From positions 1-30,999 of IMG/VR virus record IMGVR_UViG_3300016665_000461: 30,999 nt of DNA. One strand, 5' to 3'. Position numbers and translations under genes: made by a program. The DNA is from a virus. Its lineage: Duplodnaviria; Caudoviricetes. This document shows, in pieces, positions 1 through 27,604 of this stretch (positions within the stretch are counted from its first letter, which is position 1; each line of letters opens with the position of its first letter). The notes under the pieces are model-generated. The model was not told the DNA's origin, made no database searches, and worked only from the letters and a program-made list of their open reading frames with translations.

Positions 1-352
1 TCTTCTTTGCTGGTATAGGTCCGGCTTCGGATCCACCCTTACCACTGAAATACTTTTTGCCACCGATGACTCCTCGAAGAAGCTCAGCTTTTCTTATTGC
101 TCTGGCTGCCTTTGCACTAGTATTACCACGGTCTCTATACCACTGATCCATGTACAGATCGCCCATGAGATCCATTTCTCTACGGGCTTTTCTTCTTAAT
201 AGTTTTCTACCAGCTTTAGTTGTGATTAGTCTTTTCGCCGCTCTACCTTTACGGGCTAAACTTGTTCCGCCTCGACGAACGGCACCAGCAATTGCCTGCC
301 CACCTCTAGAGGCAGCTAATCTTCCAGCAAGAGCTAGTAATGGTCCTGGCAT
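1..352 (-). CDS. 5' part of a virion-associated protein running off the window; positional candidate for tape measure (gp29-like) or ejected protein
   Basis: Not in the ORF track. ATG at 352-350 overlaps the TAA of the upstream ORF (TAATG). The frame is open to position 1: MPGPLLALAGRLAASRGGQAIAGAVRRGGTSLARKGRAAKRLITTKAGRKLLRRKARREMDLMG..., very Arg/Lys/Ala/Gly-rich. Function is inferred from position only. Confidence 0.7.
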   Translation of the reverse strand, partial: MPGPLLALAGRLAASRGGQAIAGAVRRGGTSLARKGRAAKRLITTKAGRKLLRRKARREMDLMGDLYMDQWYRDRGNTSAKAARAIRKAELLRGVIGGKKYFSGKGGSEAGPIPAKK

Positions 353-534
353 TAGATGTTTCTCTTCTCAGCTTCTTCTTTTTGTTTTTCGAGATAAGCC
401 AACAACATTTCGACGTAAATATCACGCTCAAACGGAATCAATTTTTCAATCTCGTCAATAGAGTATTTATGATGCTGAGCCAGAGCGAACACGGTGCTGT
501 AGTAATTCTGGAGAGAATTATGACTCAGCCCCAA
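352..534 (-). CDS. gp51: Short baseplate hub assembly protein ('gp51' of cyanophage-type T4-likes); possibly made as the -1 frameshift extension of gp26
   Basis: LSHNSLQNYYSTVFALAQHHKYSIDEIEKLIPFERDIYVEML matches the NYY..NF.L.QHHKYS..EIE.MIPWERDIYV pattern of this family. It follows gp26, has only a TTG start and no clear SD. Confidence 0.8.
   Translation of the reverse strand: MGLSHNSLQNYYSTVFALAQHHKYSIDEIEKLIPFERDIYVEMLLAYLEKQKEEAEKRNI
464..471 (-). promoter_or_regulatory. Putative T4-type late promoter CATAAATA inside gp51
   Basis: + strand TATTTATG; 1 mismatch to TATAAATA; about 110 nt upstream of the ATG at 352. Confidence 0.55.
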
Positions 535-1235
535 GTAAAAAAATCGCGAAGACTCGTCAGTTCAATTGAACGTTCATTACCAAGAGAATTCTTATACTCA
601 ATCTTGTGGTACATCTTTGGCAGATCGCTGAAGAACTGACGGATCTTATCATAGGTCTCAACATCAAGGTTATCGATGAATGCCTGTACTTCAGCTTCCG
701 GTTCTTCGGCTACGATATAGACATTATCCTCATCATAGATCTTGTCGATGCAGCTACGAACCAGATACTCAACGACATCGGTTCCAGTTGCATTCTCAGG
801 AATGTTATTGATCGTTTGCACCGATGGGTACTTCATAATCATGCCGATCTCGTCATTGATCTTGATCTTGTTCGACTGAGTTTCAGTCTTCTGAATCTCT
901 ACTTCATCCAGATCAATCTCAAATGTGTAGACCTTATCATCCTCAAGATCTCGGTAAGACACCTCGATGACGTTATTCACCGAGCGAGCACGAAGCTTGA
1001 GGAACATGTACTCAAGATCAAACGTCGCCAAAGAATCAACGTCAAAGTCTGCATCAAGAATACAGTTGTTGAGAATCTGCTTGATTGCAAGGATGATGTC
1101 TCTGTCGGTGTCGCTCTGCTGAGCAATCAGAAGAATCTTTTCTTCCTTGACTAGAAACGGACGAAACTTAACTACCTTATCTTGAGATGGTATAGTCATT
1201 TCAAAGATAGGCGTATCAATTTTAGGTAGTGCCAT
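525..1235 (-). CDS. gp26: Baseplate hub subunit/assembly chaperone gp26
   Basis: MALPKIDTP...VKFRPFLVKEEKILLIA...FDLEYMFLKLRARSV...IGMIMKYPS...DFF are typical T4-like gp26 motifs. GGAG SD upstream. Confidence 0.88.
   Translation of the reverse strand: MALPKIDTPIFEMTIPSQDKVVKFRPFLVKEEKILLIAQQSDTDRDIILAIKQILNNCILDADFDVDSLATFDLEYMFLKLRARSVNNVIEVSYRDLEDDKVYTFEIDLDEVEIQKTETQSNKIKINDEIGMIMKYPSVQTINNIPENATGTDVVEYLVRSCIDKIYDEDNVYIVAEEPEAEVQAFIDNLDVETYDKIRQFFSDLPKMYHKIEYKNSLGNERSIELTSLRDFFTWG
537..543 (-). promoter_or_regulatory. Putative -1 programmed frameshift (slippery) site T TTT TTT at the gp26/gp51 junction
   Basis: Minus strand GAT TTT TTT ACT TGG GGC TGA; the -1 frame reads TTT TTT TAC TTG GGG CTG AGT CAT, which is the gp51 frame. 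Confidence 0.6.
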
Positions 1236-7779: not shown

Positions 7780-7788
7780 GGATATATT

Positions 7789-8686: not shown

Positions 8687-9106
8687 GTGCCTAAGAAGGA
8701 TTCGTACAGTAGCATAGACAGAAAGTCGGAGCTGTACAGCGATTTTCTAACCGATCTTAATCCACATCCAGAAATGGGTGACGTGGTAAGGTTCACCAAT
8801 GAGAATGCGGTTAAGAGATCAATCAGAAATCTTATTCTTACGAACAAATATGAGAGGCCTTTCCAGCCGGATATTGGCTCGGATATTAACAAGATTTTGT
8901 TCGAGCCTATGAACACTGCCGTGGCAGATGTTCTTCGTCAGTACATCAAAGAAACTATTGAAAACTATGAGCCGCGCTGTCAGCTTATAGATGTTCTTGT
9001 CGTAGGGTACGAAGAAAGAAATGTTTACGTAGTAACCATCATATTTGCTACAATAAATAAAGAAGAACCAACCACGCTGCAACTTTCACTTTATAGAGTA
9101 CGATAA
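8687..9106 (+). CDS. gp25: Baseplate wedge subunit gp25
   Basis: YSDF...HP..GD.....NENAVKRSIRNLILTNKYERPFQPDIGS....LFEP...IENYEPR are gp25 motifs. GTG start with AAGGA SD. Confidence 0.93.
   Translation: MPKKDSYSSIDRKSELYSDFLTDLNPHPEMGDVVRFTNENAVKRSIRNLILTNKYERPFQPDIGSDINKILFEPMNTAVADVLRQYIKETIENYEPRCQLIDVLVVGYEERNVYVVTIIFATINKEEPTTLQLSLYRVR
9052..9059 (+). promoter_or_regulatory. Putative late promoter AATAAATA upstream of gp6
   Basis: In the gp25 3' end, about 46 nt before the gp6 ATG. Confidence 0.55.
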
Positions 9107-10932
9107 TGGCCGCCAATTCAAGTATCATCCTCACTAATCTTGATTTCGAGACACAGAAGAATACGCTTAAGACGTATCTGGCCAGCCAGGACCGCTTCAA
9201 GGACTACGACTTTGAAGGGTCGAACATGAATGTTCTACTCGACATTCTTACGTACAACACCTACATGAATGCGTTCTACCTCAATATGGTAGGTAATGAA
9301 ATGTTCCTAGACACGGCTCAGCTTCGTGACTCGGTCGTTTCTCACGCCAAGGAACTGAACTATACACCACGTTCATTCCGTTCGGCTGAAGCAAAAGTTT
9401 CCATCTCTATTCAGTCAATCGTCTCCGGTAAGAACTCATTGGTCATTCCAAAGGGAACAACATTCTCGTCAAGACTGGCAACAAGAAACTTCACATTTAC
9501 CACCGGTGAGAATCTAGTTCTAACCGGCCAATACCTTGGGTCGGGAATCACAAAGTTTGATTCTGGCGAAGTCACACTCTATGAAGGCGACTATGTGGTC
9601 GACTCGTTTACATACATTCAAGGCCAGAACAACAGATACCTTCTTTCAAATAGAAATATCGATACATCCAGCATCAGTGTTACGGTCATTGAAGACGTTG
9701 CCGCAACCATTGTACCATACCAGAGAGCAACATCACTATTCAATATCGATGCCAACTCAAGAGTGTTCTTCGTTCAGGGCGCTGAAAACGAGCAGTATGA
9801 AATCGTATTCGGTGATGGTGTAACCGGTAAGCTTCCTAAGAACAACTCGGTTGTTACGGTCGAGTACAGAGTCTGTAACGGTGAACTTCCAAATGGATGC
9901 GCCATCTTTAAACCGGATGGCGCGATTGACGGCGAAACGAACGTTGTAATATCCACATCGGTTCCTGCTCAGGGTGGCGCCGTTTCGGAAACCACTGAAT
10001 CCATTAAGTTCAATGCGCCAAGACACTTCACCACTCAGGAAAGAGCGGTTACGACCGAAGACTATGAGACTCTTCTATCATTAAACTTCCCAGAAGTAAA
10101 CGCGGTTTCTGCATATGGTGGTGAGGATCTTAGCCCTCCACAATTTGGTAAGGTGTTTGTCGCTGTTGACCTTAAAGAGGTTGATGGTCTACCAAACATC
10201 AAGAAGGATCAGTACTATAGATTCCTTAAGACCCGTTCACCAGTTTCTATCGATCCGGTTATCGTCGACCCAGACTACATGTACATCTATGTCGAGTCGC
10301 TGGTAAGATACAACGTCAACGTCACTCAGTTGAACTCCGACGATATCAGAACCGCAGCCATCTCGGCAATTCTTGATTACGCCGGAACAAACTTGAACAA
10401 CTTCAATAGAACTCTTAGATACTCCAAGCTCGTTCAGGCCGTCGACGCAGCTCACCCTTCAATCATCTCGAATGAAACCAAGGTAAAGGCAATTAAGTAC
10501 ATCACTCCGACTCCTGGAGCAACGACCAGCTTCGATATAGACTTTACTCTTCCACTTCAGGTTGAAGTTGCTGATATCGCGGTCAACTACAACGAGTATC
10601 AAGATAAGCATTCGGTCGAAACAACATCATTCATCTACAACAGTGAAAAGTGCTACATGGAAGATGACGGTCAGCCAAATGAAGCCGGAATCGGTAAGAT
10701 GAGAATCGTATCTATGGCTCTTGGTTCTCATACTCCAGTTAAAGAAGTAGGTACTATCAACTACAACACCGGGCTTATTCAGCTTAAGGACTTCAGAGTT
10801 GATAGCTATACCGGCGGTAGCATTAAGATTTACGCTGCTACAAAGAGTAGCGATATTTTTTCAAAGAGAAATACGATTCTCAACATTAACGAAACAGACC
10901 TAAATATTCAAGTCGAGCAAATAAGAGAGTAA
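9106..10932 (+). CDS. gp6: Baseplate wedge subunit gp6
   Basis: LDFE..K..LK.YL..Q..FKDYDFEGSNMNVLLDILTYNTY.NAFY.NM..NEMFLDTAQLRDSVVSHAKELNYTPRS and ESIKFNAP....QERAVT..DY are gp6 motifs. Confidence 0.95.
   Translation: MAANSSIILTNLDFETQKNTLKTYLASQDRFKDYDFEGSNMNVLLDILTYNTYMNAFYLNMVGNEMFLDTAQLRDSVVSHAKELNYTPRSFRSAEAKVSISIQSIVSGKNSLVIPKGTTFSSRLATRNFTFTTGENLVLTGQYLGSGITKFDSGEVTLYEGDYVVDSFTYIQGQNNRYLLSNRNIDTSSISVTVIEDVAATIVPYQRATSLFNIDANSRVFFVQGAENEQYEIVFGDGVTGKLPKNNSVVTVEYRVCNGELPNGCAIFKPDGAIDGETNVVISTSVPAQGGAVSETTESIKFNAPRHFTTQERAVTTEDYETLLSLNFPEVNAVSAYGGEDLSPPQFGKVFVAVDLKEVDGLPNIKKDQYYRFLKTRSPVSIDPVIVDPDYMYIYVESLVRYNVNVTQLNSDDIRTAAISAILDYAGTNLNNFNRTLRYSKLVQAVDAAHPSIISNETKVKAIKYITPTPGATTSFDIDFTLPLQVEVADIAVNYNEYQDKHSVETTSFIYNSEKCYMEDDGQPNEAGIGKMRIVSMALGSHTPVKEVGTINYNTGLIQLKDFRVDSYTGGSIKIYAATKSSDIFSKRNTILNINETDLNIQVEQIRE
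10899..10906 (+). promoter_or_regulatory. Possible late promoter variant CCTAAATA upstream of gp7
   Basis: TAAATA core about 30 nt before the gp7 ATG, in the gp6 3' end. Confidence 0.35.
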
Positions 10933-10935
10933 TTA

Positions 10936-13900
10936 ATGCGAGATATTGAAAAGAGTATTTCTCCTCTAGTAGAAAATATGTTCCCTGCCTTTTATAAGGA
11001 CGAGGGACCAAACTTTATTGCGTTCGTAAAAGCATACTTCGAATGGCTTGAACAGCCTGACAATCCAATAGCTGAAGCCAGAAACGTTCTGTCATACAGA
11101 GACATCGATACCACTACCGAGAAGTTCATTCTAAGCTTCAAGGAAAAGTATCTTAAGAACATTCAGTTCGACACCGCCACAAACAAGAAGCTTCTCGTAA
11201 AGAACTCGCTCGACCTGTACAGATCCAAAGGTTCAGAGAACGCTATCGATCTGTTCTTTAAGCTGGTGTATGGTACACAGGCCGAAGTAAGAAACCCTGG
11301 CCTAAACGTACTTAAGCTATCCGATGGTGTCTGGGAAAAGCCAATCTATCTCGAAGTATCCGAGACCGATAGAAATATTGACTATGTCGGTAAGCAGATT
11401 ATTGGTTCGCTTTCCGGCGCGACATCATTCGTTGAGAAGTACATCAAGCGTAAGACCGTATCCGGTTACGTAGCTATTCTTCAGATCTCGAACCTTTCAG
11501 GCGAATTTAAGAAGGGTGAAGTCATTTCTGTGATTCTTAATGGATCACAAAAGACATATGACAACTCACCTAAGCTTATCGGTTCGATGCAGGAAGTCAT
11601 CATTCAGGACGGATCCCGTGGATTCAATGTTGGTGACATCGTTTCGATCGGATCCTCATATGCTGGCCTTGGTGGTCTGGCTCGAGTAACAGCAGTTTCA
11701 GAATCTACCGGTGCGGTGGACTTTATCTTTGTCGATGGTGGTTGGGGATACACCGACACATCGGCCTTCTCTATCGTTTCCGAAAAAGTTTTGTTTGTAG
11801 AAAATGTTGTTGCAGCTCCAAGAGCCGAAACATATTTCTCTCTATTCGAGCAGGTGGTACAGCCTCTCGTAAGCATGTCCTATAATAACGCTGAAATATC
11901 TGTTCAGCCTGGTGACTCGCTTTACCGTGTTGATGTGGCCAATAACATTGTAGCCAAAGCGACGGTTCTTACCGCTAATCAGTTTACAACGACAACTGGT
12001 GAGCTTGTTGTAAGCCCAGACTATGGCGCCATTCTAGCAGATAACGAAGAGTACTTTATCAATAGTGTTCAGTCCGGCGATTCACTAAGAGCCGATGCTA
12101 TCCAGGATAGAACCATCAGCGGTTCTGTGATGGGTGCAACGACAACCTACGATCTGTCGATTACCAATCAGTACGGCACTCTTGCGGTCGGTGATACATT
12201 GTATCAAGTCGGTACCACTGCTGAAGGCACGGTGTCAGCAATTGCATCCACACCGACCGGTAACGTTGTAGTTCTTACAAATTCTACCGGCGCATTTAAG
12301 AACTCATTCGCGACATATTCTCTTCTGGAATCAAACAAAACCTTTGATCCATACACTGATGTCGATCAGACAGCTGGTGTATACACCATTGCCATTCCAA
12401 ATAATACGTTTGCAAACAATGATCTTGTAAAGTATGTTACACCAACCGGTTCAGCAGCAATCTCTGGACTAAGCAACAACTCACTGTACTTCGTTGTTGG
12501 TGCTACAACATCTTCAATCAGTCTTTCTGAAACCAGAGGCGGATCAAAGATTGCTATCCAGAAGCTTGGTGTTGCACCTGGTGCCGATCATACAATTCAA
12601 CTAAACAATATAAACGTCGCGTACGCGCGCGTGAGCGGAAACTCATCGTTCGTATTCGATAGTGCTGACTACATCCTGGTAAAGAATAACACCAACCTCT
12701 TTAAGGTTGGCGACATTGTAAGATATACGACTGATGTTGGTGTTCCAGCTATCACTGGTCTAACTTCAGGTACTGACTACTTCGTGGTTTATGCCGACAG
12801 TGATGGCATTAAGCTTTCGAACAGATACAATGGCACACCACTCTCGATTAGTCCAATTGCCACCAACACGGTAGGACATACGTTCACCGGTAGAATGAGT
12901 ATTCGTGCAAGAACTCCGGCTGGAACCACGGTTCCAGATTTCTATGCAGACTTCGAAGGTGTGAACATGAACATTGGTGTCTATGACATCAAGAGATCGG
13001 TGTTCAATATTAACTATGCATCAGCAAGCAACTCAACCGTTCTTGCATATGGCAACAACATCTATCAGTACGATGGTGATGGCAAGGTAAGCGCATCCGC
13101 CAAGATCGTTACCGTAGAAATCGATTCGATCGACGACACAATTGGTCTTATCAGTGCAGTGCCTACATTCGGTACTATCTTTGAAGGTCAATCCATCTAC
13201 ACCGATGCGAATGCTGCTTCGGCTTCGGTTACCAACCTTTCGAATCAGATCAGAGGTGGTGACTATGTAATCTCTTCCAACACGAAGATGATTACACTTC
13301 GTAACGGTACTCAAATGTCGGTGCCAAGACAGTCAAGCGGCTTTGGAGCTAGCTTTGATGTTACTGGTATCGGTGAGACTGAATCAATCTTTATTAACAC
13401 CGACATCATCAATGCAAACGGTGTATCATTCATCAGCAGCGATAGAACAGTCCTGTCGATGACTAACCCTGGATTTAATGAGGGTGACACCGTAGTTCAG
13501 TACTTGAAGTCTAACTTCCAGGGCAATACTTCCAGTGTTCTGTCGAATGGCTTCATTACGATGACCACGACCGGAATTACTGAAGGATCCGTTCTCGAGT
13601 ACTATGCGGCAACCACACCGATCAAGCTGGTTGTTAACTCTACAGCCTCGGCCAATATTTCCAATGGTACTCAGTTCTTTGCCAAGAATGTAACGGCATC
13701 TGGTCTATCTCTTGTTCAAAATCTAGATGATTCGGTTGTTGCTAACCTTGTAGGTACTGCAGCCAACACAAATCACTTCTTCTTGAAAGTACAAGGAGGA
13801 GGAACCATAGTTTCTGAAACCGGTGGTGGAATTACCGTTGCCGATGTTTATGGCGAATTCAAAGTAACAGCATCCGGCTACGGAAACGTAATGGTGTATG

Positions 13901-16900
13901 GCGCTTCTTCAACGAATGCGGCAATCACGGGCATCACTCAGTCGGCTCCGTCATCGATCATTCAAAAGCCATTCCTAGATACTCCTATCAGATCTTCTGG
14001 TTATGGTTTTGCCAAGAATCCAAACGCAAATCTAAACGATACGATTTTCTCGAGCCTATCGTATAATAAGTTCAATATCGGCACGATTGCTGGTATCTCT
14101 GGAGTTGACCCTGGTTCGAACTACAACACCGACCCATACGTCCTCGTTTACCAGCCATACATCGCTCAGTTCAATAGAAAAGACTATGTGTTTGAGATTG
14201 CCAACATCACTGGTACCTTTGTTGCTGGAGAAAAGATTACACAGTCGACCGGTGCACTAACATTCTACGACCTAGAAGTAAGTGGTGGTGTTAAGGACGC
14301 CGACTATAATGCTATCACTAGAAACATCGATCCAAAGTATGATGTCGATGGAACCAATGAATTCATCTACATTCCATTTGAGACTGCAAAGATCAACTCG
14401 ACCAATGATGTCGGCTCGCTAAGACTTTCTTTCAACTCTCTAACCGATGTTGACAGCGTTCAGAACTTTATCTTTATTCAAAACAGCCCATTCACTGATG
14501 GTGATTCGGTTCTTTACATTAAGGAATCCGTATCTGGCATCGGACTATCGAACAATACATCTTACTTTGTAGTATCGTCGAACACATCGGGAATTAAGCT
14601 TACATCGACTGCTGGTGGTGATCCAATTTCTCTTAATAAGACATTGGACTCATCGACTCAGCACTACTTCTCGAAGACCGTATCCAACTATATCTCGGTT
14701 CAGGATCATGGCTATTCAAATGGCATGATCGTAAGATACTATCGTGATACCGGCAATACGCAGAACATCGGTCTTTCCGATGGCGCACTGTACAAGGTTG
14801 CAAATACTGGAGCATACGGTTTCAATCTTGCCAACGTTTCTACTTCGGCTGTAATAGCTCTTACTCCAGGTGGTGATGAAGATGGTCACACGATCAAGGG
14901 TTACTACAACGGAGCTTCGACCACACAGTTGATCTTCAACAACGGCGACAGAATCCTTTACAACAAGTACGTAACCGGCGATACCGATATCGGTCCGGAC
15001 AACGGAAACACATACTTCGTAATCGCGGCAAATACACTTGGCTTCAAGATTACTACCACTCCTGGTGTTGTTGGTGATATTGTCAACCTATCATCAACCG
15101 CATCGAGCGAAGCTTCACACTACATTGGAACCGTTCCTGGATACCTTGCTGGTGATAGAGTTTACCAAGTTATTGAAAAGGGCTTCAACGCTCAGTCCAA
15201 CGTATCGTCGAATAGAATCACTATCGCAAACAGCCCATTTGCAAACAACGATAGAATTAGATACTTCACTGGCACTGGTGGAACGCCAATCACTGGTTCG
15301 AACAATGCATACTACTATGCGATGAATGCCAATTCATCCGGTCTGCAGTTGAAGTCGACTCTTGGATCCACAACACCAGTAACATTGACAGCAGCTGGAT
15401 CCTCACAGACACATAGCCTCGAGACGATTCCTACGGCTTCAATCTTCAATGTGTACACACAGGACGGAGATAGCTTCGTAAGAATCAATAACCTGACTCA
15501 GACATTCCTTCCAGACTATCAATTGAAGTCGAATACAAACATCTATGTCGACAATAATGTTCTATCGGTAACACCATACAGCGAACTAAAGGTTGCTCAG
15601 GGCATTGTTAAGTCGGCCAACACATCGACAGTTCTGGTCAAGAGAATTAATTTTGAGAATACATTTATTCCAGGTGAATCCATCACGGGTCAGTTCTCAG
15701 GTACAAGTGCAACTCTGATTTCAGTGGCCGAAGATGCCAGCTCAGCTTCGATCGGTGTTAATGCCAACATTGAAGCAAACGTTGTTACCGCAAACGGTAC
15801 GATTACTAACCTCGAAGTTATCGATTCTGGTATCGGTTACTCCAACTCTGAAGTTGTACAGTACACTTCGGCTGACGGATCCAGATCAGGTACCGGCAAG
15901 GTAGTCATCGATGGTAGTGGTAGAAGCCGTGGCTACTACAAGAGCAGCAGAGGTTTCCTATCCAACGATCAGTACCTGCATGATGGCGACTACTACCAGG
16001 AATACTCGTACGAAATTCTTACCAAGGTTTCATTCGATCGCTACCAGGACATGTTCAAGAAGGTCCTCCACGTTGCCGGTACCAGAGTGTTCGGTTCGGC
16101 ACTGGTCATTGAAGAGAATGATAAGCCAATCAATGTAAAGCAGATCGAAACTTCTCAGATCGTTGAGTTCAATCCAAAGCTCGACATCAGCGATAACTCG
16201 ATCGAAGTCGGCATCGAAAATATCAAGAGCAGATTTAACTCGGCATTCATCAATGAAACGACCGATTTCATCTCATTGAACGAGCATCAGTTTGCTGAAG
16301 GTGAAAGAGTAAAGTACATCACTGACACTGGAACCGTTCCAAACATCGGTCTTTCAAACAATCAGTTCTATTACATCAAGAATGCTACACCAACTGGCTT
16401 CTCATTAAGTACAACTCGCGGTGGAAATAAGATTCCTCTTACCGCAACCGGAACAACCAGCCTCGGCCACAATATTCAGTCGTACACGAATCCGTTCAAG
16501 ACCGGCGATCTAGTTGAATACTACACTGACTATAGAACCTTCAACTCGAAGTCTGATGTCGACAACGATAATGACTTCATCCGTCTACAGGACAACATCT
16601 TCGATTCGAACGACTACACGGTATATCAAACAACTCCAGTAACAAGATTCCCAACAAAGGGACTTATTCCTGGAAAGTCATACTACGTACTAGAAGCGAA
16701 TACTGCAGGCGTCAAGCTATCAAATGCTCAAAGATACCTTGGTGCGGTATTCCTATACCCAGACGGTTCGAACGATCTTGAAGTTCACCTGGTAGACTCA
16801 AGAAACTTTGGCCAGGTCGATCTTACAGCAAGTCCAAAGTCTCTACTTCCAATCAAAGAGATTGATCTGTACGGACAGCAGTTAGAACTTCAGGGTGTTG

Positions 16901-18783
16901 ATTACGATATCGTAGCGGATAACGTAAGTGCAAGAATGTACACGAAGTCCGGCGAAGAAATCATTCTATTCACGTTTGATGAAACGGTCGGTGGTGCTGC
17001 TGCCGGATCCATGAAGGTCTATATGTACAATGCTTCGGAAAGCTATGATCCGACGGCATACTTCAACCAGACTGGAGAAGGCAACGTAACAAGATACAGA
17101 CTTACTTCAAGAGGTCTGACGGTATTCAATATCCCAGGTGGAATCGAATACATCTTCACTGATGGTAACCTTGACGTTCTTCCAAAGACCAGCCAAGGAT
17201 TCCTTGTCGATCTGTTCAATACAAAGTTCGAGTTCGGAAGAAGCGACATTAGACACGACGATGACTTTATCATCTTCGATAACGAGATGGAAAATGTTGT
17301 CGATACCGATAGAGTGCTCGTATTTGACGGCATCAATGATGTTCCTGGCAGCGCTCTTATCAACATTCCTAACCACGGACTAGTCCTTGGTGATCTTGTT
17401 CAGTACACAAAGGATGCTTCTGCTGGAGCAGTTGGCGGTCTTACGCCGGGCGAAACATACTACGTGGTGTATGCAATCGACAACTTCATCTCACTAAGCA
17501 CATCGTATCCTGGTGTTGCGCTGAACGTAACGGCTGCATCAACCGGTACTGGCGATTCATACCTATCATATGTTAAGAATCCAGACTCCGTGTTCAAGTT
17601 TAACAATGGTGACGTTGTCGAACTGACTTATCCTATCGACAATATTGCGATCGGTGGATTGAACTATGGCCAGCAGTACTATGTAGCACAGGCGAACACG
17701 ACCGGATTTAAGCTTACAGGAAACAATCCAAAGTTTGAAATCATTCCGAATATGCCAACGGCCGTAGATTCTGACTTTATGGCTATTCAGAACAACAAGC
17801 TTTCAAATGGCACTCAAGTAAAGTACTACACCGAAAAGGGAACGATGCCTATCGCTCCGCTTGTGAACAATAGTCTATACTACGTCGTATCATCGAACAC
17901 AAGTGGCGTCAAGCTTTCGGAAACAATGAATGGCGCCGTGGTCAATGTTACGAGTGTTCCATCTCTAACAGGCCACAGACTGCTTGCTCAGTTCGATGAA
18001 ATCAATATCGCCAAGACATCGGCATCATTTGACTCAGTTGAAGATGTTAAGGACGATCAGGACTTCATCATTCTTCTGAACAATCCATTCATTAAGAACG
18101 ATAGAGTCATCTACACTATTGATGCTGGTTACACTGCACCATATGGAATCTCTCCGCCGGTTACATTCAAGGCCAACACTCAAGGAATTGATGAGAGCAA
18201 TAGAACCATTGCAATCACCGGTAACCAGTTCGTAACCGGTCAGAAAGTATTGTACTACACTTCTACTGGAAACACGGTAATCGAAGGCCTCACGAACAAT
18301 GCGATCTACTATGTTGCTAATTCTGAAGTAAACACTCTGAAGCTCAAGGAAACTCCACTCGACTATCCAATTCCTATCAAGGCTGGATCGAATGAAAGCG
18401 GCCATAACCTTGTCCCAGTATACTACGTTGCTCAGTCTAACTCGATCGGTATCAAGATTGCCTTCTCTCCAAATGGCACACCACTTGATATTGGTCCAGC
18501 TACTTCGGCTCCGCCAAGTCCATCAGGTTCGGACAGCACGTTTGAAAAGCTTGAATCCGACTCGGGCTACAAGTTTACCCTAATAAATAATGATACAGGT
18601 GCAGGTCACATCCTTTATAAGTCTATTCCTATTGATGGTCTTGACTTTGGAAGAAGATACTACGTCGTCGACTCTACCGAGACTACGATTAAGATCTCTG
18701 AAACTATGATGGGTCAACCGATACCAATATACTCCACCCGCAACGAAGTAGGTCACTACTTGAAAAAAATTGTTGAGGAATAA
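10936..18783 (+). CDS. gp7: Baseplate wedge initiator gp7, enlarged to 2615 aa by inserted repeat modules
   Basis: N-terminal FP.FY..EGPNFIAFVKAYFEWLE...YRDIDTT...LYRSKGS..AI.LFFKL.YG and the motif GYY.SSRGFLS..QYLHDGDYYQEYSYEI...KKVLHVAGTRVFG (about 15930-16095); lies between gp6 and gp8. Confidence 0.85.
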   Translation: MRDIEKSISPLVENMFPAFYKDEGPNFIAFVKAYFEWLEQPDNPIAEARNVLSYRDIDTTTEKFILSFKEKYLKNIQFDTATNKKLLVKNSLDLYRSKGSENAIDLFFKLVYGTQAEVRNPGLNVLKLSDGVWEKPIYLEVSETDRNIDYVGKQIIGSLSGATSFVEKYIKRKTVSGYVAILQISNLSGEFKKGEVISVILNGSQKTYDNSPKLIGSMQEVIIQDGSRGFNVGDIVSIGSSYAGLGGLARVTAVSESTGAVDFIFVDGGWGYTDTSAFSIVSEKVLFVENVVAAPRAETYFSLFEQVVQPLVSMSYNNAEISVQPGDSLYRVDVANNIVAKATVLTANQFTTTTGELVVSPDYGAILADNEEYFINSVQSGDSLRADAIQDRTISGSVMGATTTYDLSITNQYGTLAVGDTLYQVGTTAEGTVSAIASTPTGNVVVLTNSTGAFKNSFATYSLLESNKTFDPYTDVDQTAGVYTIAIPNNTFANNDLVKYVTPTGSAAISGLSNNSLYFVVGATTSSISLSETRGGSKIAIQKLGVAPGADHTIQLNNINVAYARVSGNSSFVFDSADYILVKNNTNLFKVGDIVRYTTDVGVPAITGLTSGTDYFVVYADSDGIKLSNRYNGTPLSISPIATNTVGHTFTGRMSIRARTPAGTTVPDFYADFEGVNMNIGVYDIKRSVFNINYASASNSTVLAYGNNIYQYDGDGKVSASAKIVTVEIDSIDDTIGLISAVPTFGTIFEGQSIYTDANAASASVTNLSNQIRGGDYVISSNTKMITLRNGTQMSVPRQSSGFGASFDVTGIGETESIFINTDIINANGVSFISSDRTVLSMTNPGFNEGDTVVQYLKSNFQGNTSSVLSNGFITMTTTGITEGSVLEYYAATTPIKLVVNSTASANISNGTQFFAKNVTASGLSLVQNLDDSVVANLVGTAANTNHFFLKVQGGGTIVSETGGGITVADVYGEFKVTASGYGNVMVYGASSTNAAITGITQSAPSSIIQKPFLDTPIRSSGYGFAKNPNANLNDTIFSSLSYNKFNIGTIAGISGVDPGSNYNTDPYVLVYQPYIAQFNRKDYVFEIANITGTFVAGEKITQSTGALTFYDLEVSGGVKDADYNAITRNIDPKYDVDGTNEFIYIPFETAKINSTNDVGSLRLSFNSLTDVDSVQNFIFIQNSPFTDGDSVLYIKESVSGIGLSNNTSYFVVSSNTSGIKLTSTAGGDPISLNKTLDSSTQHYFSKTVSNYISVQDHGYSNGMIVRYYRDTGNTQNIGLSDGALYKVANTGAYGFNLANVSTSAVIALTPGGDEDGHTIKGYYNGASTTQLIFNNGDRILYNKYVTGDTDIGPDNGNTYFVIAANTLGFKITTTPGVVGDIVNLSSTASSEASHYIGTVPGYLAGDRVYQVIEKGFNAQSNVSSNRITIANSPFANNDRIRYFTGTGGTPITGSNNAYYYAMNANSSGLQLKSTLGSTTPVTLTAAGSSQTHSLETIPTASIFNVYTQDGDSFVRINNLTQTFLPDYQLKSNTNIYVDNNVLSVTPYSELKVAQGIVKSANTSTVLVKRINFENTFIPGESITGQFSGTSATLISVAEDASSASIGVNANIEANVVTANGTITNLEVIDSGIGYSNSEVVQYTSADGSRSGTGKVVIDGSGRSRGYYKSSRGFLSNDQYLHDGDYYQEYSYEILTKVSFDRYQDMFKKVLHVAGTRVFGSALVIEENDKPINVKQIETSQIVEFNPKLDISDNSIEVGIENIKSRFNSAFINETTDFISLNEHQFAEGERVKYITDTGTVPNIGLSNNQFYYIKNATPTGFSLSTTRGGNKIPLTATGTTSLGHNIQSYTNPFKTGDLVEYYTDYRTFNSKSDVDNDNDFIRLQDNIFDSNDYTVYQTTPVTRFPTKGLIPGKSYYVLEANTAGVKLSNAQRYLGAVFLYPDGSNDLEVHLVDSRNFGQVDLTASPKSLLPIKEIDLYGQQLELQGVDYDIVADNVSARMYTKSGEEIILFTFDETVGGAAAGSMKVYMYNASESYDPTAYFNQTGEGNVTRYRLTSRGLTVFNIPGGIEYIFTDGNLDVLPKTSQGFLVDLFNTKFEFGRSDIRHDDDFIIFDNEMENVVDTDRVLVFDGINDVPGSALINIPNHGLVLGDLVQYTKDASAGAVGGLTPGETYYVVYAIDNFISLSTSYPGVALNVTAASTGTGDSYLSYVKNPDSVFKFNNGDVVELTYPIDNIAIGGLNYGQQYYVAQANTTGFKLTGNNPKFEIIPNMPTAVDSDFMAIQNNKLSNGTQVKYYTEKGTMPIAPLVNNSLYYVVSSNTSGVKLSETMNGAVVNVTSVPSLTGHRLLAQFDEINIAKTSASFDSVEDVKDDQDFIILLNNPFIKNDRVIYTIDAGYTAPYGISPPVTFKANTQGIDESNRTIAITGNQFVTGQKVLYYTSTGNTVIEGLTNNAIYYVANSEVNTLKLKETPLDYPIPIKAGSNESGHNLVPVYYVAQSNSIGIKIAFSPNGTPLDIGPATSAPPSPSGSDSTFEKLESDSGYKFTLINNDTGAGHILYKSIPIDGLDFGRRYYVVDSTETTIKISETMMGQPIPIYSTRNEVGHYLKKIVEE
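12343..18768 (+). repeat. About 15 copies in gp7 of a roughly 85-aa protein module (consensus F[ND]x3-5V-Dx2-4-DFIxIxNxxFxxGDxVxYxTxxGxxxIxGLxNNxxYYVxxANTSGxKLSxTxGGxxIxLx5-8GHxL)
   Basis: Copies start near 12343, 12631, 13516, 14326, 14392, 14431, 15184, 16168, 16234, 16540, 17233, 17323, 17734, 18028 and 18166. Recognisable at protein level only; counted by eye. Confidence 0.8.
18582..18589 (+). promoter_or_regulatory. Putative late promoter AATAAATA upstream of gp8
   Basis: In the gp7 3' end, about 195 nt before the gp8 ATG; spelled with ATA-AAT codons. Confidence 0.5.
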
Positions 18784-21700
18784 ATGAGCGTTACTAAAAA
18801 GTTGGCCACTACCAAGCTTGGTGTAAATGTGGCTAAGGACTTCTACAATAGCTTTGGAACGACTGACAATACGTACTATATGTACTTTGCCAAGCACGTT
18901 CCATATGGAACTCCATTTGAATACCTAAGTGAAGTTGAAGTCGTGGCTTTCAACGCCAAGGATGATGTCGCTAATTCGACGATCTCGATTCCCAACGTAA
19001 TCTTTAACAATGGTGACAGAGTAAGGTACTACACCAGCGCCGGAATCACGGCAATGAATGGTCTAGAAACCAATGGCATCTACTACGTAATTAACTCGGA
19101 TGAAAATGGATTCCAACTGGCTTCCACCTCATCATCGACCACTCCTATTTCGATCACCGGTAAGTCGGTAAGTGAAATTCACTACTTCAAGTACGCATCA
19201 GGCAGATCGGTATCTCAGGTTACCGGTGATGACGTTGAGGCTCCACAAGATTCTGAAATCTATACCTCGACCCAAGCATACGATGATATGCTTTATGCGA
19301 AGAGAATCACTGAGAACGACGTAAGAATCATGGTGCCAAAGTATCTTTGGACCGGTGGTACAACATACTCTCAGTACGACAACACCGATCCTAATCTTTA
19401 TCAGTCACAGTTCTTTGTGGTCGTTGATGACATCACAGAGTACAACGTATACAAGTGCCTGTATAATAATGGTGGTAGCGCATCGACGGTTCCACCATCG
19501 AGAAACGGTAACGTCTCTGACATCTATCCACTTATTCTAAGCGATGGTTACATCTGGAAATATATGTACACCATCACGAAGCTTGACTACGATCGCTTCA
19601 ACACCGCCAACTATATTCCAGTTTCTCCAAACACATCGATTATCGAGTCAGCAATTCCAGGCACCGTTGATGTCGTCAATGTTTCTGGTGCCGGTGCTGG
19701 ATACTCCAACTGGTACATGGGAACGCTGAAGTCTGGCGATCTTAAGTTTGGTGGTATTGAAACTCAGTACGCTCTTGGCGACGATGCGTCTTCTATTGAT
19801 AACTACTACCAGAATTGTGTTCTTAAAATTACATCGTCTCAGACACCAGGTGTTGTAGGTCAATATAGAATCATCAATAGCTATTCAGGCTTCGGTGCTA
19901 GAAAGTACGTAACTCTCGATTCTCCATTCACCATCTCACCTTCGATTGGTGACACCTACGAGATCTATCCTCTCGTATACGTATGGGGTGATGGATCGGA
20001 AACGGAAACAGCTCGTGGTCGTGCAATCATTCATTCAACCGGCAACACGGTTTCTCGAGTAGAGATGCTATCCTCTGGTAGAAACTACCGCACAGCAATC
20101 GCCTCGATCGAAGTTCCTGACGTCGTAAAGACTGGTCTTACATTTAAGGACGCAACTCTTAATCCTATCGTATCTCCTGCATCAGGCCATGGTGCAAATC
20201 CAGCTGTAGAACTTGGAGGTAGAGCGCTTGGTGTATCGATCACGGTCAATAAGTCTGAGAACGGAACACTTCCAACATCAAACGACTTCAGATCGATTGG
20301 TATCATCAAGAACCCAGAATTTACAAACATCACGATCTCTCACGACACCCCGGTTGGCTCGTTCAGCATCGGTGAAGAGGTTGTTCAGTTCAAGAACATT
20401 AAGCTGTATGGCTATGTAGAATCGGTTGCCGGTACAAACCTCATCTATAAGGAAAATGACGGTAAGATTTCTAACACCATCTCTTTCGCTATTGGAAGTG
20501 GTGGTGAAAATCTTGTCGGTACCGGTTACGATCACAGAACAAATGACCAAGTCATCTTTGATAACACCGACACTGGTGGTACCGGAGCTACAGCAACATT
20601 CATTGCCAACCTAACCGCGGTGAAGAGCGCTAATAACTTCCAGGGCAACAATGCTGTTCATGGTGCAAACTTCATCAATGTTCAGTCGTCGCATACATTT
20701 GCTGTTGGCGACAAGGTAAGATACAGTGTATCAACAACGACACCTAATCCTCCGATCTACGGACTGATTGATGGTGAATACTACTACGTAGCGGCTAACA
20801 CAGCCAACAGCATCTCGGTTTCGACTACACTTAATGGTGCAACTCAGGCTGTAAGCAACTACATCGAGTATGTTTACAATATCTCATCTCCAACCACAAC
20901 AATCACTGGAGCTGATATTGGAAACAAGGTCCTTGAGTATACACTGAATGCGGTTCAGGTTCTTAAGAATGATGTAGCACTAACTAACGTATCACAATAT
21001 GCTCAAACCAACACTTCAGTAATTACACTGGTAGGATCCGGTTCAGCAATTGCTGGAGACGTTATCAAGGTTCGCGCTTTCTCTAACAGTGCAGCAACTT
21101 CATCGTTTAATGTAGTCAATGGCCAGATTACTTCGGTTACCGTCACGAACCAAGGATCTGGATATACCAAGCCGCCAAGAGTTTACATCAATAGCGATAG
21201 TGGTGGCCAAGGCGCCGAAATTACTGCGGCTCTTGCCAACCCAGAGATTACATCGTATGCTGACACATTCGATCATGGTGACCTAATGCTAATCACCAAT
21301 GGATCGAGAAACTTCATCAGCTCGGTCAATTCAACTCCTGATAACTATAAGATCGTTACCGACAGAGTTGCGCCATTCACTACATCGAACAATCAGATCT
21401 CTAAGGTCGAAGTTACCGCGCGTGGCATCGTCACATCGGTCGCTACCGGTCAGATCACCATCACAAACGTAAATGGTATCTTTGAGTCTGGTTCTAGAAT
21501 CGCTGGTCTATCTTCGTACGCAACCGCAAATATTCTTAGCGACAATGCGATCAAGATCAACGATAAGAATCCGAACCTGTTCAAGACCATCGTTCAGCTA
21601 TCATCGCTGATTGGTTCTGCATCGTCGAATATTCCATTCATCGATGACGAAAAGATCTATCAGGACTCAGCAGTAGAATACACGATGCCATCTGCTAGAG

Positions 21701-21954
21701 TACACACCACGGTTATTGGTGAGGGTGCCAATAACGATATCGTATATGCATCCAGACTCTATGGAACGTTCAGTAGAGAAGCTGGTAACAGAACCATTCT
21801 TGGGGACACAAGCGGCTCCTCGTTTGACCTGCTAAACATCTATCCTGGTGATTTTGTTCCAGGATCTGGTGAAGTTCTTTATATTGAGAATGTAGACCCA
21901 ATAAATAGAAATAATAGCAAGTCCGAACAGATCAAAATTATACTGGAGTTCTAA
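18784..21954 (+). CDS. gp8: Baseplate wedge subunit gp8, enlarged to 1056 aa
   Basis: YDDMLYAKRI......MVPKYLWTGGTTY.QYD...FFVV...YNVYKCLYNN...ST..P...DGYIWKYMYTI...F.T.NYIPV, GHGANP..ELG, NDFRSIGIIKNP, SGEVLYIEN..PI.R...KSEQIKIILEF are gp8 motifs. Confidence 0.9.
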   Translation: MSVTKKLATTKLGVNVAKDFYNSFGTTDNTYYMYFAKHVPYGTPFEYLSEVEVVAFNAKDDVANSTISIPNVIFNNGDRVRYYTSAGITAMNGLETNGIYYVINSDENGFQLASTSSSTTPISITGKSVSEIHYFKYASGRSVSQVTGDDVEAPQDSEIYTSTQAYDDMLYAKRITENDVRIMVPKYLWTGGTTYSQYDNTDPNLYQSQFFVVVDDITEYNVYKCLYNNGGSASTVPPSRNGNVSDIYPLILSDGYIWKYMYTITKLDYDRFNTANYIPVSPNTSIIESAIPGTVDVVNVSGAGAGYSNWYMGTLKSGDLKFGGIETQYALGDDASSIDNYYQNCVLKITSSQTPGVVGQYRIINSYSGFGARKYVTLDSPFTISPSIGDTYEIYPLVYVWGDGSETETARGRAIIHSTGNTVSRVEMLSSGRNYRTAIASIEVPDVVKTGLTFKDATLNPIVSPASGHGANPAVELGGRALGVSITVNKSENGTLPTSNDFRSIGIIKNPEFTNITISHDTPVGSFSIGEEVVQFKNIKLYGYVESVAGTNLIYKENDGKISNTISFAIGSGGENLVGTGYDHRTNDQVIFDNTDTGGTGATATFIANLTAVKSANNFQGNNAVHGANFINVQSSHTFAVGDKVRYSVSTTTPNPPIYGLIDGEYYYVAANTANSISVSTTLNGATQAVSNYIEYVYNISSPTTTITGADIGNKVLEYTLNAVQVLKNDVALTNVSQYAQTNTSVITLVGSGSAIAGDVIKVRAFSNSAATSSFNVVNGQITSVTVTNQGSGYTKPPRVYINSDSGGQGAEITAALANPEITSYADTFDHGDLMLITNGSRNFISSVNSTPDNYKIVTDRVAPFTTSNNQISKVEVTARGIVTSVATGQITITNVNGIFESGSRIAGLSSYATANILSDNAIKINDKNPNLFKTIVQLSSLIGSASSNIPFIDDEKIYQDSAVEYTMPSARVHTTVIGEGANNDIVYASRLYGTFSREAGNRTILGDTSGSSFDLLNIYPGDFVPGSGEVLYIENVDPINRNNSKSEQIKIILEF
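21900..21907 (+). promoter_or_regulatory. Putative late promoter AATAAATA upstream of the VrlC-like gene
   Basis: In the gp8 3' end, about 52 nt before the ATG at 21960. Confidence 0.55.
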
Positions 21955-21959
21955 ATTAA

Positions 21960-24900
21960 ATGCCAATTCAAACAGATCTCAGCGCTTCGCCGCACTTTGA
22001 CGATTTTGATGAGAACAAGGGTTACTATAAGATCCTGTTCCAGCCGGGCGTTGCCGTTCAGACACGTGAACTCAACCAGCTCCAGACCATGCTTCAGAAC
22101 CAGATTGAAAAGTTTGGTGACAATATTCTTAAGCGTGGTACAATTGTTGCTGGTTGCAACATCACGTATTGGCCAAGACTTCCATACGTCAAGATCAAGG
22201 ATCTTGCGACCGATGGAACCCCAGTCAATATCAATCAACTTAATGGCTACTACCTAAGAAACTCCAACAACCTTGAGTCCAGAATCTCTGTGGTCGAACA
22301 GGGTCTGGAAACTTCATCTCCAAACCTTAAGACTCTGTTCATAAGCTACATCAACTCCGGTGATGACCTCGGTCAGACCGTTGAGTCCAGCAAGTATGCG
22401 GCAGATCAGATTCTCACGGTATACGATCCAAAGAATCCAGTATTCAAGATCAATATCACCAACGGTTCGTCCGGCTTCTCTAACGCCGACACCGTTGTTG
22501 TAACCAGCTCGATGGCTATTCAGAACTCCACTGGTGGTAAGGACTTCACCATCGGTACTCGTGTTGGTCTGCTTGCAACCGACATCATCAAGAGCGACGG
22601 TCTGGCAATCGGTCAGATTGTTGGTACACCAGATACCACAACTCTACCAGATGCTGTAATCGTTCGTGTTGCTCCACTTGCAGACAGTCTAAGAGCCGGC
22701 GATAATAGACTTTGGACTTTCTACGAAAATTCATCGGTTGAAATCAGTGCGGTCAACACAACTAACAAGAGCACGGCCAATAAGATCTCAAAGGTCTATG
22801 GATACGGCGCGGCTGGATCACTTGTAACCGACAGTCTTGGTAAGGTAACTTCCATCTCGGTAACCAATGGTGGTCTTGGCTACGACTACGATCCATACAT
22901 TTCAGTTTCATCCAGCACGGCAACTGCATCAGAAATTTCGCAGTTTGCAGCATCTGCACAAAGATTCCTAACTACAATTTCGGTCGCGGGCAGCGTACAC
23001 GATCCTGTAGGATTTGGTTATGGCGTAAGCGTTGATGAAGGCTACATCTACCAGAAGGGTTACTTCATTAAGGTCGATGAACAGCTAGCGGTTGTTGAGA
23101 AGTATAACAACATTGGCTTTGATAAGTCGGTAGGCTTTGTTTCAAACGAGTCAATCATTGATAGCAATACCGATGAGACTCTTCTTGACAATGCAACCGG
23201 AGCTCCAAACTTTACCGCTCCTGGTGCAAAGAGACTTAAGCTTCAGCCGGTACTTACAGTCCTAGAAAAGGCCGAGGCCGATCTAGACTCTGAGTTCTTC
23301 CCGATCGTTGAGTTCTCGCAGGGTAGCCCATACATTACTCAGCAAGAGACCGTGTACAACAAGATCGGTGACTTGATCGCTAAGAGAACCGCTGAAGAAA
23401 GCGGCAACTATGTTATCGATAAGTTCAATGTTATCTCAAAGGATCAGAGCAATACCGCGGCTTATGCTGCATCGTTCAACATTAATATCGATCCAGGTCT
23501 AGCATACATCAATGGTTACCGTGTAAAGACCGAAGCCAACTACATTGGTGCGGTTGATAAGGGCACTGATACTTTCACCAAGGAAAACGCATCAACGATT
23601 TTCTCGTATGGCGATTTCTTCAGAGTCAATCAGCTTGCTGGTAACTTCAGATTCGATGTTGGTGACCTTGTCGAGTTCTACGATACCGCAAGACAGTACA
23701 TCACGACTCAGAATCCAGGATCCGCAATTACACCAGCCGGTAACAAGATTGGTACCGCGCGCGTACGCTCGATCGTACTCGAGAGTGGATATGCTGGTAC
23801 GGCTTCCGCGGTTTATAGAGTATACACCTTTGACCGTGTATTTGTTTCTGGAAAGACTGCCAACGACATCAAGGCAATCTACCACGGTGGGGCAACATAC
23901 CCAGGTATCTGCGACATCCTACAAGAAAACAACGAAACGATCCTTTACGATAAGAACTACAGCTCGCTTCTATTCAGAGCTGGAGTTGGCGTACAGTCGG
24001 TAGGTGACACTTTCTTCTACTATAAGGCATCGAATCCATTCAATATTGGTTCAACTGGTACTCTCGATATTTCGGTTGAGGATCCTCTTACCGAATCGTT
24101 CGACATTTTCTCTGAGAACACGATCGCTGAAAACGAAATAGTTATTGTTCCAACCGATAACTTCCAGATCTCGGCAAACCTTGCTGGTACAGTTTCTGTA
24201 TCGGCAACCAACACGCCAATCGTTGCCGGCACAAGCACTCAGTTCTTGTCGCAGCTGGCTATCGGCGACTGGATTAAGATTGATGATAGCTCATCAAACA
24301 TCTTCCAGGTTCAGTCGATTGAGAACGACACGACTCTTACGGTAACTAAGAATGTCGGATCGGTTATCACATCTAAGGGCGTTAAGAGATACTTCCCTAA
24401 GTATGTTCCTATCTCGTTGAGCACGCCAAATAGCAGCAGAACGGCAAAGATCGAAACCGAACAGCTCAAGATCAATCTTGGTATTCCTTCCGGTATGACT
24501 CTTGCCAATACATCGGGTAGCACATACTCGCCACCGGTTGTGGTCAACTACAACGTTAAGAAGAAGTTCACACCACCTGTAACCAAGGGAACATCTAGAA
24601 ACGTATTCGCTCGTATCAGAGTTGCCAACAACTCGGCTGGTGTTGATGGCCCATGGGCACTTGGTGCATCCGACGTATTCCGTCTAAGATCGGTCTACAA
24701 GGCAAACACAGCATCTAGAACATCCACGTTCTATACGAACTCGGCATCGATCGATAATGCCAGCGACTTCATTGCAACTCTATCCCAGCATCGCTTTGCA
24801 AATGGAGACCTCGTTGTCTATACAACCGATGGTGCATCTGCAGCGATCACTGGTCTTTCAAACAACGCAACATACAAGGTGGCGTTGGCAAATACTTCTG

Positions 24901-27563: not shown

Positions 27564-27590
27564 AGTATTGCAAATAAATAAAGTATTGCA
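27563..27590 (+). repeat. 10-bp direct repeat AAGTATTGCA (27563-27572, 27581-27590) bracketing AATAAATA
   Basis: Sequence reads TG AAGTATTGCA AATAAATA AAGTATTGCA GCAAAGAGG. Confidence 0.85.
27573..27580 (+). promoter_or_regulatory. Putative late promoter AATAAATA
   Basis: Intergenic; about 25 nt upstream of the ATG at 27605, with a GAGG SD between. Confidence 0.65.
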
Positions 27591-27604
27591 GCAAAGAGGC
27601 ATTG

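What the first reader, a model, noticed from the sequence alone, without database searches (positions are those of the whole stretch)
16168..18768. Matryoshka architecture: the roughly 870-aa gp7 C-terminal extension parses as modules nested about five deep
Seen, read as brackets. A opens FNPKLDISDNSI (16168) [B complete 16234-16476] and continues TNPFKTGDLVEYYTD. C opens FNSKSDVD...GVKLSNAQ (16540-16731) [foreign domain] KTSQGFLVDLFNT. D opens FGRSDIRHDDDFII (17233) [E 17323-17565] FNNGDVV...GFKLTGNN [F 17734-17991] FDEINIAKTS. G opens FDSVEDV...YGISPP (18028) [H 18166-18414] and resumes VYYVAQSNSIGIKI...STFEKL. Short closers follow in reverse order: ESDSGYKFTL (D), INNDTGAGHILY (C), and finally PIDGLDFGRRYYVV...GHYLKK (A), about 700 aa after A was interrupted. 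The depth is A>C>D>G>H. The assignment of the short closers is my interpretation. Inference: a branched, tree-like baseplate appendage built by recursive in-frame domain insertion at different loops, implying a domain with adjacent termini and an unknown insertion mechanism. I know of no description of such recursive nesting in phage baseplates.
Basis: partly seen in the sequence, partly recalled or inferred. Interest (0 to 1): 0.85.

Follow-up and report, generated by a model that had tools for sequence, protein, structure and literature searches.

The report
Self-nested barrel domains in phage baseplate
A baseplate protein of an uncultured T4-like phage ends in eight copies of one small domain whose sequences sit inside one another five levels deep, and its relatives run from one copy to six levels, so this virion protein likely grows a branched arm by pasting copies of the domain into its own loops.

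Summary
The nesting is real. Among 120 gp7 relatives the tail runs from one unbroken module to depth six, so empty sites exist. Close relatives differ by one whole module. AlphaFold models fit closure of A, D and G around their inserts; I saw no contact map. The module is a predicted small beta-barrel like the E1 FCCH domain and phage tail-tube decorations (Z 6-7). One relative carries a probably recent insert that is 90% identical to a module downstream in the same gene, which points to copy-paste. The window's junctions show no microhomology. Function is inferred: an outward binding arm. Recursive self-nesting is published for the Si3 insertion of cyanobacterial RNA polymerase; my ten searches found none for a baseplate. 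This scan noted the same build before in cyanophage gp7 on other DNA. Verdict: new variant of a known kind.

The parts
10936..18783 (+). gp7-like baseplate wedge gene, 2615 aa, between gp6 (9106-10932) and gp8 (18784-21954)
   Evidence: PF23786, phrog_17744; neighbours phrog_219, phrog_438
16168..16230 (+). A1, first piece of outermost module A (aa 1745-1765)
16231..16488 (+). B, complete module inserted in A after model state 19
   Evidence: absent in 7 of 120 relatives whose tail is one module
16489..16539 (+). A2, second piece of A
16540..16722 (+). C1, main body of module C, inserted in A after state 37
   Evidence: site empty in P0006 and L006
16723..17184 (+). unrelated beta-rich domain of about 150 aa inserted in C after state 61; no family found
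   Evidence: absent in P0009-P0013; no Pfam hit; Atlas rows under 0.83 only
17185..17229 (+). C2, C resumes
17230..17322 (+). D1, start of module D, inserted in C after state 76
17323..17577 (+). E, complete module inserted in D after state 21
   Evidence: absent in P0003-P0005; End_beta_barrel E 2.2e-5, below cut-off
17578..17733 (+). D2
17734..17994 (+). F, complete module inserted in D after state 66
   Evidence: absent in P0003-P0005
17995..18027 (+). D3
18028..18165 (+). G1, first half of module G, inserted in D after state 77
18166..18420 (+). H, innermost complete module (depth 5), inserted in G after state 47
18421..18555 (+). G2, second half of G with its closing strand
   Evidence: pLDDT 76-96 in the G[H] model, mostly 25-45 in the long model
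18556..18588 (+). D4, closing strand of D (weakest assignment by sequence)
   Evidence: 13 of 100 shuffles reach it; model ranges 355..813
18589..18627 (+). C3, closing strand of C
   Evidence: same motif closes C in P0079, which has no D
18628..18774 (+). A3, last half of A, 696 residues after A2
   Evidence: pLDDT 84-89; model range 1..876
14326..15138 (+). second nest of the same module in central gp7, three deep (aa 1131-1401)
12343..12897 (+). two further single modules in gp7 (aa 470-558, 574-654); others at 13516-13794 and 15184-15432

Best explanation
The last 870 residues of this gp7 hold eight copies of an 85-residue module and one unrelated domain nested in sequence five deep, predicted to fold as small beta-barrels that close around their inserts, and likely built by repeated in-frame pasting of whole module copies into surface loops to make an outward, probably host-surface-binding arm on the baseplate. 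Steps: (1) shown in sequence: the bracket structure and the empty sites in relatives. (2) Predicted: each module is a closed barrel whose first and last strands lie together, so it can enter a loop, and each host finishes as the chain returns. (3) Inferred: the donor is usually another module of the same gene or genome, placed by non-homologous recombination, and only whole in-frame copies in five tolerant loops survive selection. (4) Inferred: filled and empty alleles then move between close relatives by recombination in the conserved flanks. (5) Inferred and weakest: the arm works as a dispensable, multivalent decoration that binds surface glycans weakly.
For: Parser result and shuffles. Depths among 120 gp7 tails: 7 at depth 1, 63 at 2, 36 at 3, 8 at 5, 6 at 6 (the set is redundant, 27 distinct shapes). 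Insert positions cluster at model states 10-12, 16-21, 36-47, 62-70 and 74-79, with 2 more at 30. P0003-P0005, P0015 and P0016 stack five closers for five open modules before A resumes. L006 (empty), L003/L014 (+85 aa) and L005 (two nested modules) have flanks 91-99% identical in DNA. Long model: A1, A2 and A3 at pLDDT 79-91; four single-barrel matches span model 355..812/813 (D with its closer) and one spans 1..876 (A). G[H] model: pLDDT 90.5, pTM 0.85. P0017: a 95-aa insert in a loop that is empty in 35 of 36 proteins, 90% identical to a module 148 aa downstream, also in three other members of its cluster. P0154: host and insert 62% identical. Allele class does not follow the upstream flank tree: 6 changes, minimum 2, shuffled mean 7.5. 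Cr30 gp7 ends without any module. Best fold matches are tail-tube, E1 FCCH and endosialidase barrels; FCCH domains face outward on siphophage tails (PMC13576161, passages).
Against: No contact map was visible, and a model range gives only first and last residue; no row shows C closing. The long model is weak inside: pTM 0.47, G2 at pLDDT 25-45, and its alignment paired F with relatives' G. The G[H] alignment was chosen for the same nesting, so that model leans toward it. D's closer is not significant by sequence. A looser parser invented edge nesting in 11 of 12 synthetic tandem arrays; the strict one in 1 of 25, and it still nested two natural arrays that I could not verify. Window inserts are no closer to their hosts (23-32%) than to other modules, and junction overlaps of 5-8 nt are at chance level, so the window itself shows no donor or junction signature. 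The downstream flank tree does not force more than one origin per class. All fold Z-scores are under 8. Nothing here tests binding or virion location.
Confidence: 0.78

Rival explanations
1. The outer nesting (A around B and C, G around H) is right, but the short closers of C, D and G are loose linkers or swap partners, so the inner stalk is a string of open barrels and true depth is below five.
For: Closers are interchangeable by score and D's closer is reached by 13 of 100 shuffles; pLDDT 61-69 over the D and C closers in the long model.
Against: The number of stacked closers follows the number of open modules in relatives (3 in P0013, 5 in P0004). G's closer follows G directly in P0010-P0013. 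Four matches put the D closer in the D barrel, and the G closer is a confident strand.
Confidence: 0.1
2. The architecture is as parsed but the arm has no selected binding role: modules pile up nearly neutrally because the barrel tolerates inserts and the gene end faces solvent.
For: Tail size varies from 111 to 975 aa among relatives; Cr30 gp7 has none; presence is patchy among near-identical phages.
Against: Reading frame and barrel motifs are kept at 30-40% identity, and the A>C>D>G spine is shared by relatives at that distance, which suggests selection on folding at least.
Confidence: 0.25
3. The region is a tandem array of circularly permuted repeats or of degenerate fragments, and the brackets are a reading artefact.
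For: The looser parser can invent nesting at module edges.
Against: Model states do not run in cyclic order along the chain; each interrupted module is unbroken in some relative; the strict parser leaves 24 of 25 tandem controls flat.
Confidence: 0.02
4. The graded series reflects loss from a deep ancestor more than gain.
For: P0057 appears by eye to carry E, F and H plus two more nested modules, so the window and P0003-P0005 could each be reductions of it (its automatic parse is partly wrong).
Against: The P0017 insert is polarised as a gain by its 90% identity to a neighbour and its rarity. The modules in A's second loop differ between lineages, which fits separate gains. Loss cannot explain how nesting began.
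Confidence: 0.2

Closest known systems
Si3 insertion of cyanobacterial RNA polymerase beta' (RpoC2), nested SBHM/HABAS domains
   Same: Copies of one small beta domain inserted in each other, with branching, six levels (PMC13114784, passages); eight SBHMs, four built from distant chain segments, forming an elongated arm (PMC10895346, passages).
   Different: Different fold and an enzyme. Here a virion protein whose depth varies from 1 to 6 among relatives, with empty and filled alleles in near-identical genomes.
Contractile tail sheath proteins (T4 gp18 type, diffocin CD1363), 'Russian doll' domains
   Same: Phage-tail structural proteins whose domains are inserted in one another (PMC6088184, passages).
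   Different: Two to four unlike domains in one line; no self-copies, no branching described in the passages read.
E1 FCCH-like / endosialidase beta-barrel domains on phage particles
   Same: Best structural matches of modules B and E: Mystique tail tube 9n71 (Z 7.1, rmsd 4.0, 76 aligned), FCWL1 9jlf (Z 7.0, 2.7, 80), UBA1 215-295 (Z 6.7, 3.1, 77), phi92 endosialidase (Z 6.1, 3.2, 76), P22 coat I-domain (Z 4.6).
   Different: Those chains matched through one barrel each; Z under 8 may mean only a common arrangement; Pfam cut-off not reached.
gp7 of Caulobacter phage Cr30, Stenotrophomonas DLP6, Sinorhizobium phiM12 (nearest cultured relatives)
   Same: gp6 36-41% identical, gp7 core 34-40% over part of the query; gp6-gp7-gp8 order in Cr30.
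   Different: Cr30 gp7 is 767 aa with no module hit; the others matched only the core part of the query.

Membership tests
T4-like gp7 baseplate wedge protein | Family profile match | tested here: met
   PF23786 34 bits over cut-off 27; phrog_17744 E 8e-139
T4-like gp7 baseplate wedge protein | Gene between gp6 and gp8 | tested here: met
T4-like gp7 baseplate wedge protein | Six monomers at the baseplate periphery (PMC3004832, passages) | not testable with these tools
   needs virions
Recursively nested domain architecture (A1-B1-C-B2-A2, PMC13114784) | Host interrupted by a complete domain and resuming in register | tested here: met
Recursively nested domain architecture (A1-B1-C-B2-A2, PMC13114784) | Inserted domains are themselves hosts; uninterrupted forms exist | tested here: met
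Recursively nested domain architecture (A1-B1-C-B2-A2, PMC13114784) | Separated pieces form one folded domain | tested here: inconclusive
   Predicted only: ranges fit for A and D, pLDDT fits for G, none directly for C; no contact map or experiment
Si3 / SBHM (HABAS) | Sandwich-barrel hybrid fold in an RNA polymerase subunit | tested here: not met
   The host is a baseplate protein; top fold rows are FCCH/EF-Tu-II-type barrels. Works like Si3 in build, is not Si3
End_beta_barrel PF12195 | Score at gathering cut-off 35 bits | tested here: not met
   Best 24.8 bits, module E; 16.5 for whole gp7
E1 FCCH-like closed beta-barrel (RIFT-type; label recalled) | Structural match over most of the domain | tested here: inconclusive
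   Z 6.7, rmsd 3.1, 77 aligned, 17% identity; below the tool's caution level of 8; no E1_FCCH Pfam hit on window modules
Circularly permuted tandem repeat | Model states in continuous cyclic order | tested here: not met

The most novel reading that the evidence does not exclude
A family of uncultured T4-like phages builds branched baseplate arms by an ongoing, recursive copy-paste process: a whole barrel domain is copied from elsewhere in the same gene into any of five loops of another copy, and finished branches are swapped between relatives as cassettes. This is a living, population-level series of domain-in-domain insertion from depth 1 to 6, with the donor of one recent event identifiable, and it would tune adsorption by changing arm shape and valency.
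Probability: 0.5. Interest if true: 0.75.

Novelty: new variant of a known kind. Interest (0 to 1): 0.58.

Why it matters
Deeply nested domains are rare, and the published example (Si3) does not come with intermediates in the passages I read. Here the intermediates exist: one module, two, three levels, five, six, with empty and filled alleles in nearly identical phages and one insert whose likely donor sits next to it. That makes the question of how domain insertions arise testable at DNA level. The barrel also looks like a natural scaffold that accepts large inserts at five loops. The limits: structure is predicted, function untested, host unknown, and this scan has already noted the build in cyanophage gp7.

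Tried and rejected
Junction microhomology or target duplication in the window: longest shared words 5-8 nt, while random pairs gave 5-6 most often and 8 or more in 26 of about 500; none evident at the insert boundary in L003/L006 either, where the 7 codons after the site also differ. Self-copy origin of window inserts: host identity 23-32%, not above background. A DNA donor for the C inserts of L003 and L015: only short matches to other loci. The first parser allowed edge nesting and failed its control, so it was tightened; tail shapes come from the loose version and were redone. P0009 lacks the C-terminal closers and P0057's foreign domain is misparsed; both stay in the count of 120 but their shapes are unreliable. 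Related loci with A1: none in viral contigs, one in metagenomes. Cultured phages: one weak tblastn match to the tail. Foldseek: nothing at E 0.001 or better for either model; sequence search of solved structures gave nothing useful. The structural-alignment check of the G[H] model could not be run, so G's closure rests on pLDDT alone. The foreign domain found no family and was not folded alone. Cyanophage check: weak module hits in SynMITS9220M01 gp7 (best 28.5 bits), none in S-RIM44 gp7, so I cannot say the cyanophage nested module is the same family. Literature: ten searches showed no description of self-nesting in a baseplate; most listed papers were seen as title and abstract start only, the library lacks most subscription papers, and no supplements were read.

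Full report
Setting. The window is the tail and baseplate region of a T4-like phage. ORF 10936-18783 encodes a 2615-aa gp7-like wedge protein between gp6 and gp8. The nearest cultured relatives by gp6 are Stenotrophomonas DLP6, Caulobacter Cr30 and Sinorhizobium phiM12 at 36-41%. Cr30 gp7 is 767 aa and has no hit to the module described below. The host of this phage is unknown.

The observation. All quoted motifs are at the quoted positions. A profile from nine complete window modules showed complementary halves for A and G. I then trained an 87-state profile on 103 dereplicated complete modules from relatives, leaving out P0001 and P0002, and wrote a parser that lets a module be interrupted by further modules or by an unrelated stretch. 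Without being given the brackets it returned A[B, C[foreign, D[E, F, G[H]]]], depth five, 449 bits against 315 with nesting switched off. Rejoined A, C, D and G score 67, 64, 40 and 58 bits. Shuffling single pieces reached the real score in 0 of 100 trials for nine of twelve pieces, 1 for D1, 2 for C's closer and 13 for D's closer. That test used P0001, which differs from the window at nine residues, none in the tested pieces. The three short closers are interchangeable by score, so sequence alone does not assign them.

Parser controls. The first parser invented edge nesting in 11 of 12 synthetic tandem arrays. With inserts limited to states 10-79, 24 of 25 arrays stayed flat and the window parse was unchanged. 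Two natural arrays, P0007 and P0008, were still nested at states 10, 63 or 70, which I could not verify, so late-loop calls in diverged sequences carry risk.

Relatives give the empty sites. Two searches gave 120 gp7 proteins, including near-copies of the window's own (the second listed the best 120 of 255). Their tails parse to depth 1 in 7, depth 2 in 63, depth 3 in 36, depth 5 in 8 and depth 6 in 6. The set is redundant (27 shapes), complete modules of these proteins were in the training set, and P0009 and P0057 are unreliable. The series reads: A alone; A[B]; A[B, C]; A[B, C[x]]; and on. Inserts cluster in five stretches of the model. P0010-P0013 lack the foreign domain and have G unbroken up to its closer; P0003-P0005 lack E, F and H but add two more levels and stack five closers. 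P0079 has a different insert late in C and the same closing motif before A resumes. These fix the order G, D, C, A.

Close relatives. A search with P0034 gave 39 viral loci, 25 with a complete tail. Tails fall into three classes of about 256, 341 and 441-449 aa. L006 (empty) is 91-94% identical upstream and 95-99% downstream to L003, L014 and L005 (filled). On a tree of the upstream flank (16 distinct of 25) the classes need 6 changes, minimum 2, shuffled mean 7.5; well-supported branches force 2-3 changes per class. The downstream tree also needs 6 but forces only 1. This fits exchange of filled and empty alleles by recombination, or repeated gain and loss; it does not prove either.

Predicted structure. 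The 876-aa model (15 sequences) has mean pLDDT 69.4 and pTM 0.47. A1, B, A2, C1 and the foreign domain are mostly 75-91, A3 is 84-89, the D and C closers 61-69, and G2 is mostly 25-45; the alignment had put F against relatives' G. Structural alignment against 48,161 chains found single barrels matching model ranges 355..812/813 in four rows (Z 4.3-4.8, 64-75 aligned), which spans D from its start to its closer, and 1..876 in one row (Z 4.2, 79 aligned to a 103-aa chain), which spans A. A range gives only end points, and no row shows C. A second model of G[H] with 17 sequences chosen for the same loop insert reached pLDDT 90.5 and pTM 0.85, both halves of G at 90 or more apart from one loop at 76 and the closer at 89. 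I saw no contact map, and the matching structural search for this model could not be run. The best fold matches for complete modules are the Mystique and FCWL1 tail proteins, the E1 FCCH domain and the endosialidase barrel, Z 6.1-7.1, rmsd 2.7-4.0, with the P22 coat I-domain at 4.6. These are under the tool's caution level of 8. That several of these are themselves inserted domains is recalled knowledge, except where entry titles say so.

How it likely arises. A simple tandem duplication gives N-C-N-C, not N-N-C-C, so nesting needs a whole module placed in a loop (inference). The window's events are old: inserts are 23-32% identical to their hosts, like any other pair, and junction overlaps are at chance level. 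A younger event is visible in P0017: in central gp7 a 95-aa stretch replaces two residues in a loop that is empty in 35 of 36 proteins and in all 19 loci with the site, and it is 90% identical over 86 aa to a module 148 aa downstream. Three other members of its nine-member cluster carry it, one on a 140-kb contig; the other five did not match the site pattern. In P0154 host and insert are 62% identical. So the donor is likely a module of the same gene. The recombination step is not identified; template switching during phage replication is my guess. Nesting is not confined to this tail: central gp7 has a three-deep nest, and 10 of 141 further proteins were flagged, including a gp8-like protein, a small phage protein and P0204 from a 3.8-Mb contig.

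What it likely does. The tail is absent from Cr30, varies ninefold in length, and the same module also sits in gp8 and the VrlC-like protein. FCCH domains face outward on siphophage tail tubes (PMC13576161, passages). I therefore read it as a dispensable outward arm with many weak binding sites. No call tests binding. Near-neutral accretion is a serious rival for function.

Comparison with what is known. Recursive nesting of like domains is published for Si3 of cyanobacterial RNA polymerase: six levels with branching (PMC13114784, passages; the word phage does not occur in its main text) and a crystal structure with non-tandem SBHMs (PMC10895346, passages). I reached these through earlier notes of this scan, which report the same build in cyanophage gp7 (unchecked AI notes). 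My own test found weak module hits in one cyanophage gp7 and none in another. Russian-doll insertion of unlike domains is known for sheaths (PMC6088184, passages). T4 gp7 is a monomer with six copies at the periphery (PMC3004832, passages). PMC13612043 (passages) added only a local FCCH likeness in a hub protein. Ten searches found no description of self-nesting in a baseplate; the library is incomplete and no supplements were read.

Verdict. Observation confirmed; nested architecture about 90% likely at depth five; copy-paste origin likely; function inferred. New variant of a known kind. Its value lies in the graded series and the one event with a visible donor. Interest 0.58.

Noticed in passing
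window 14131-15765 (gp7 aa 1066-1610): The central region also grows by nested modules, 368-653 aa among the relatives shown. By eye the module nest sits inside one or two copies of a second repeat type, which could make this region about five deep as well.
   Followed up: partly
P0017 aa 706-800: Probably recent module insertion, 90% identical to a module 148 aa downstream; site empty in 35 of 36 proteins.
   Followed up: yes
P0154 aa 163-430: A 478-aa protein on a 181-kb contig with three modules nested three deep, 45-62% identical to each other.
   Followed up: partly
P0204, P0224, P0185: Large proteins that do not look like gp7 carry many copies of the module, some nested; P0204 comes from a 3.8-Mb contig, so the module and its nesting may occur in cellular surface proteins.
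   Followed up: partly
window 18784-21954 and 21960-27563: gp8 and the VrlC-like (DUF4815) protein each carry two copies of the same module.
   Followed up: partly
window 16723-17184: The foreign domain in C is confidently modelled (pLDDT mostly 75-88) but has no Pfam family or convincing Atlas match.
   Followed up: partly
window 21960-29797: phrog_358 and phrog_877 match both the 1867-aa and the following 731-aa ORF, so the VrlC-like gene appears split in two here.
   Followed up: no
window 6967-8676: gp5 is only 270 aa (OB domain, no lysozyme Pfam hit) and is followed by a 295-aa ORF of no family.
   Followed up: no
P0057 tail: By eye it has the window's E, F and H plus the two extra levels of P0003-P0005, which suggests losses as well as gains.
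   Followed up: partly
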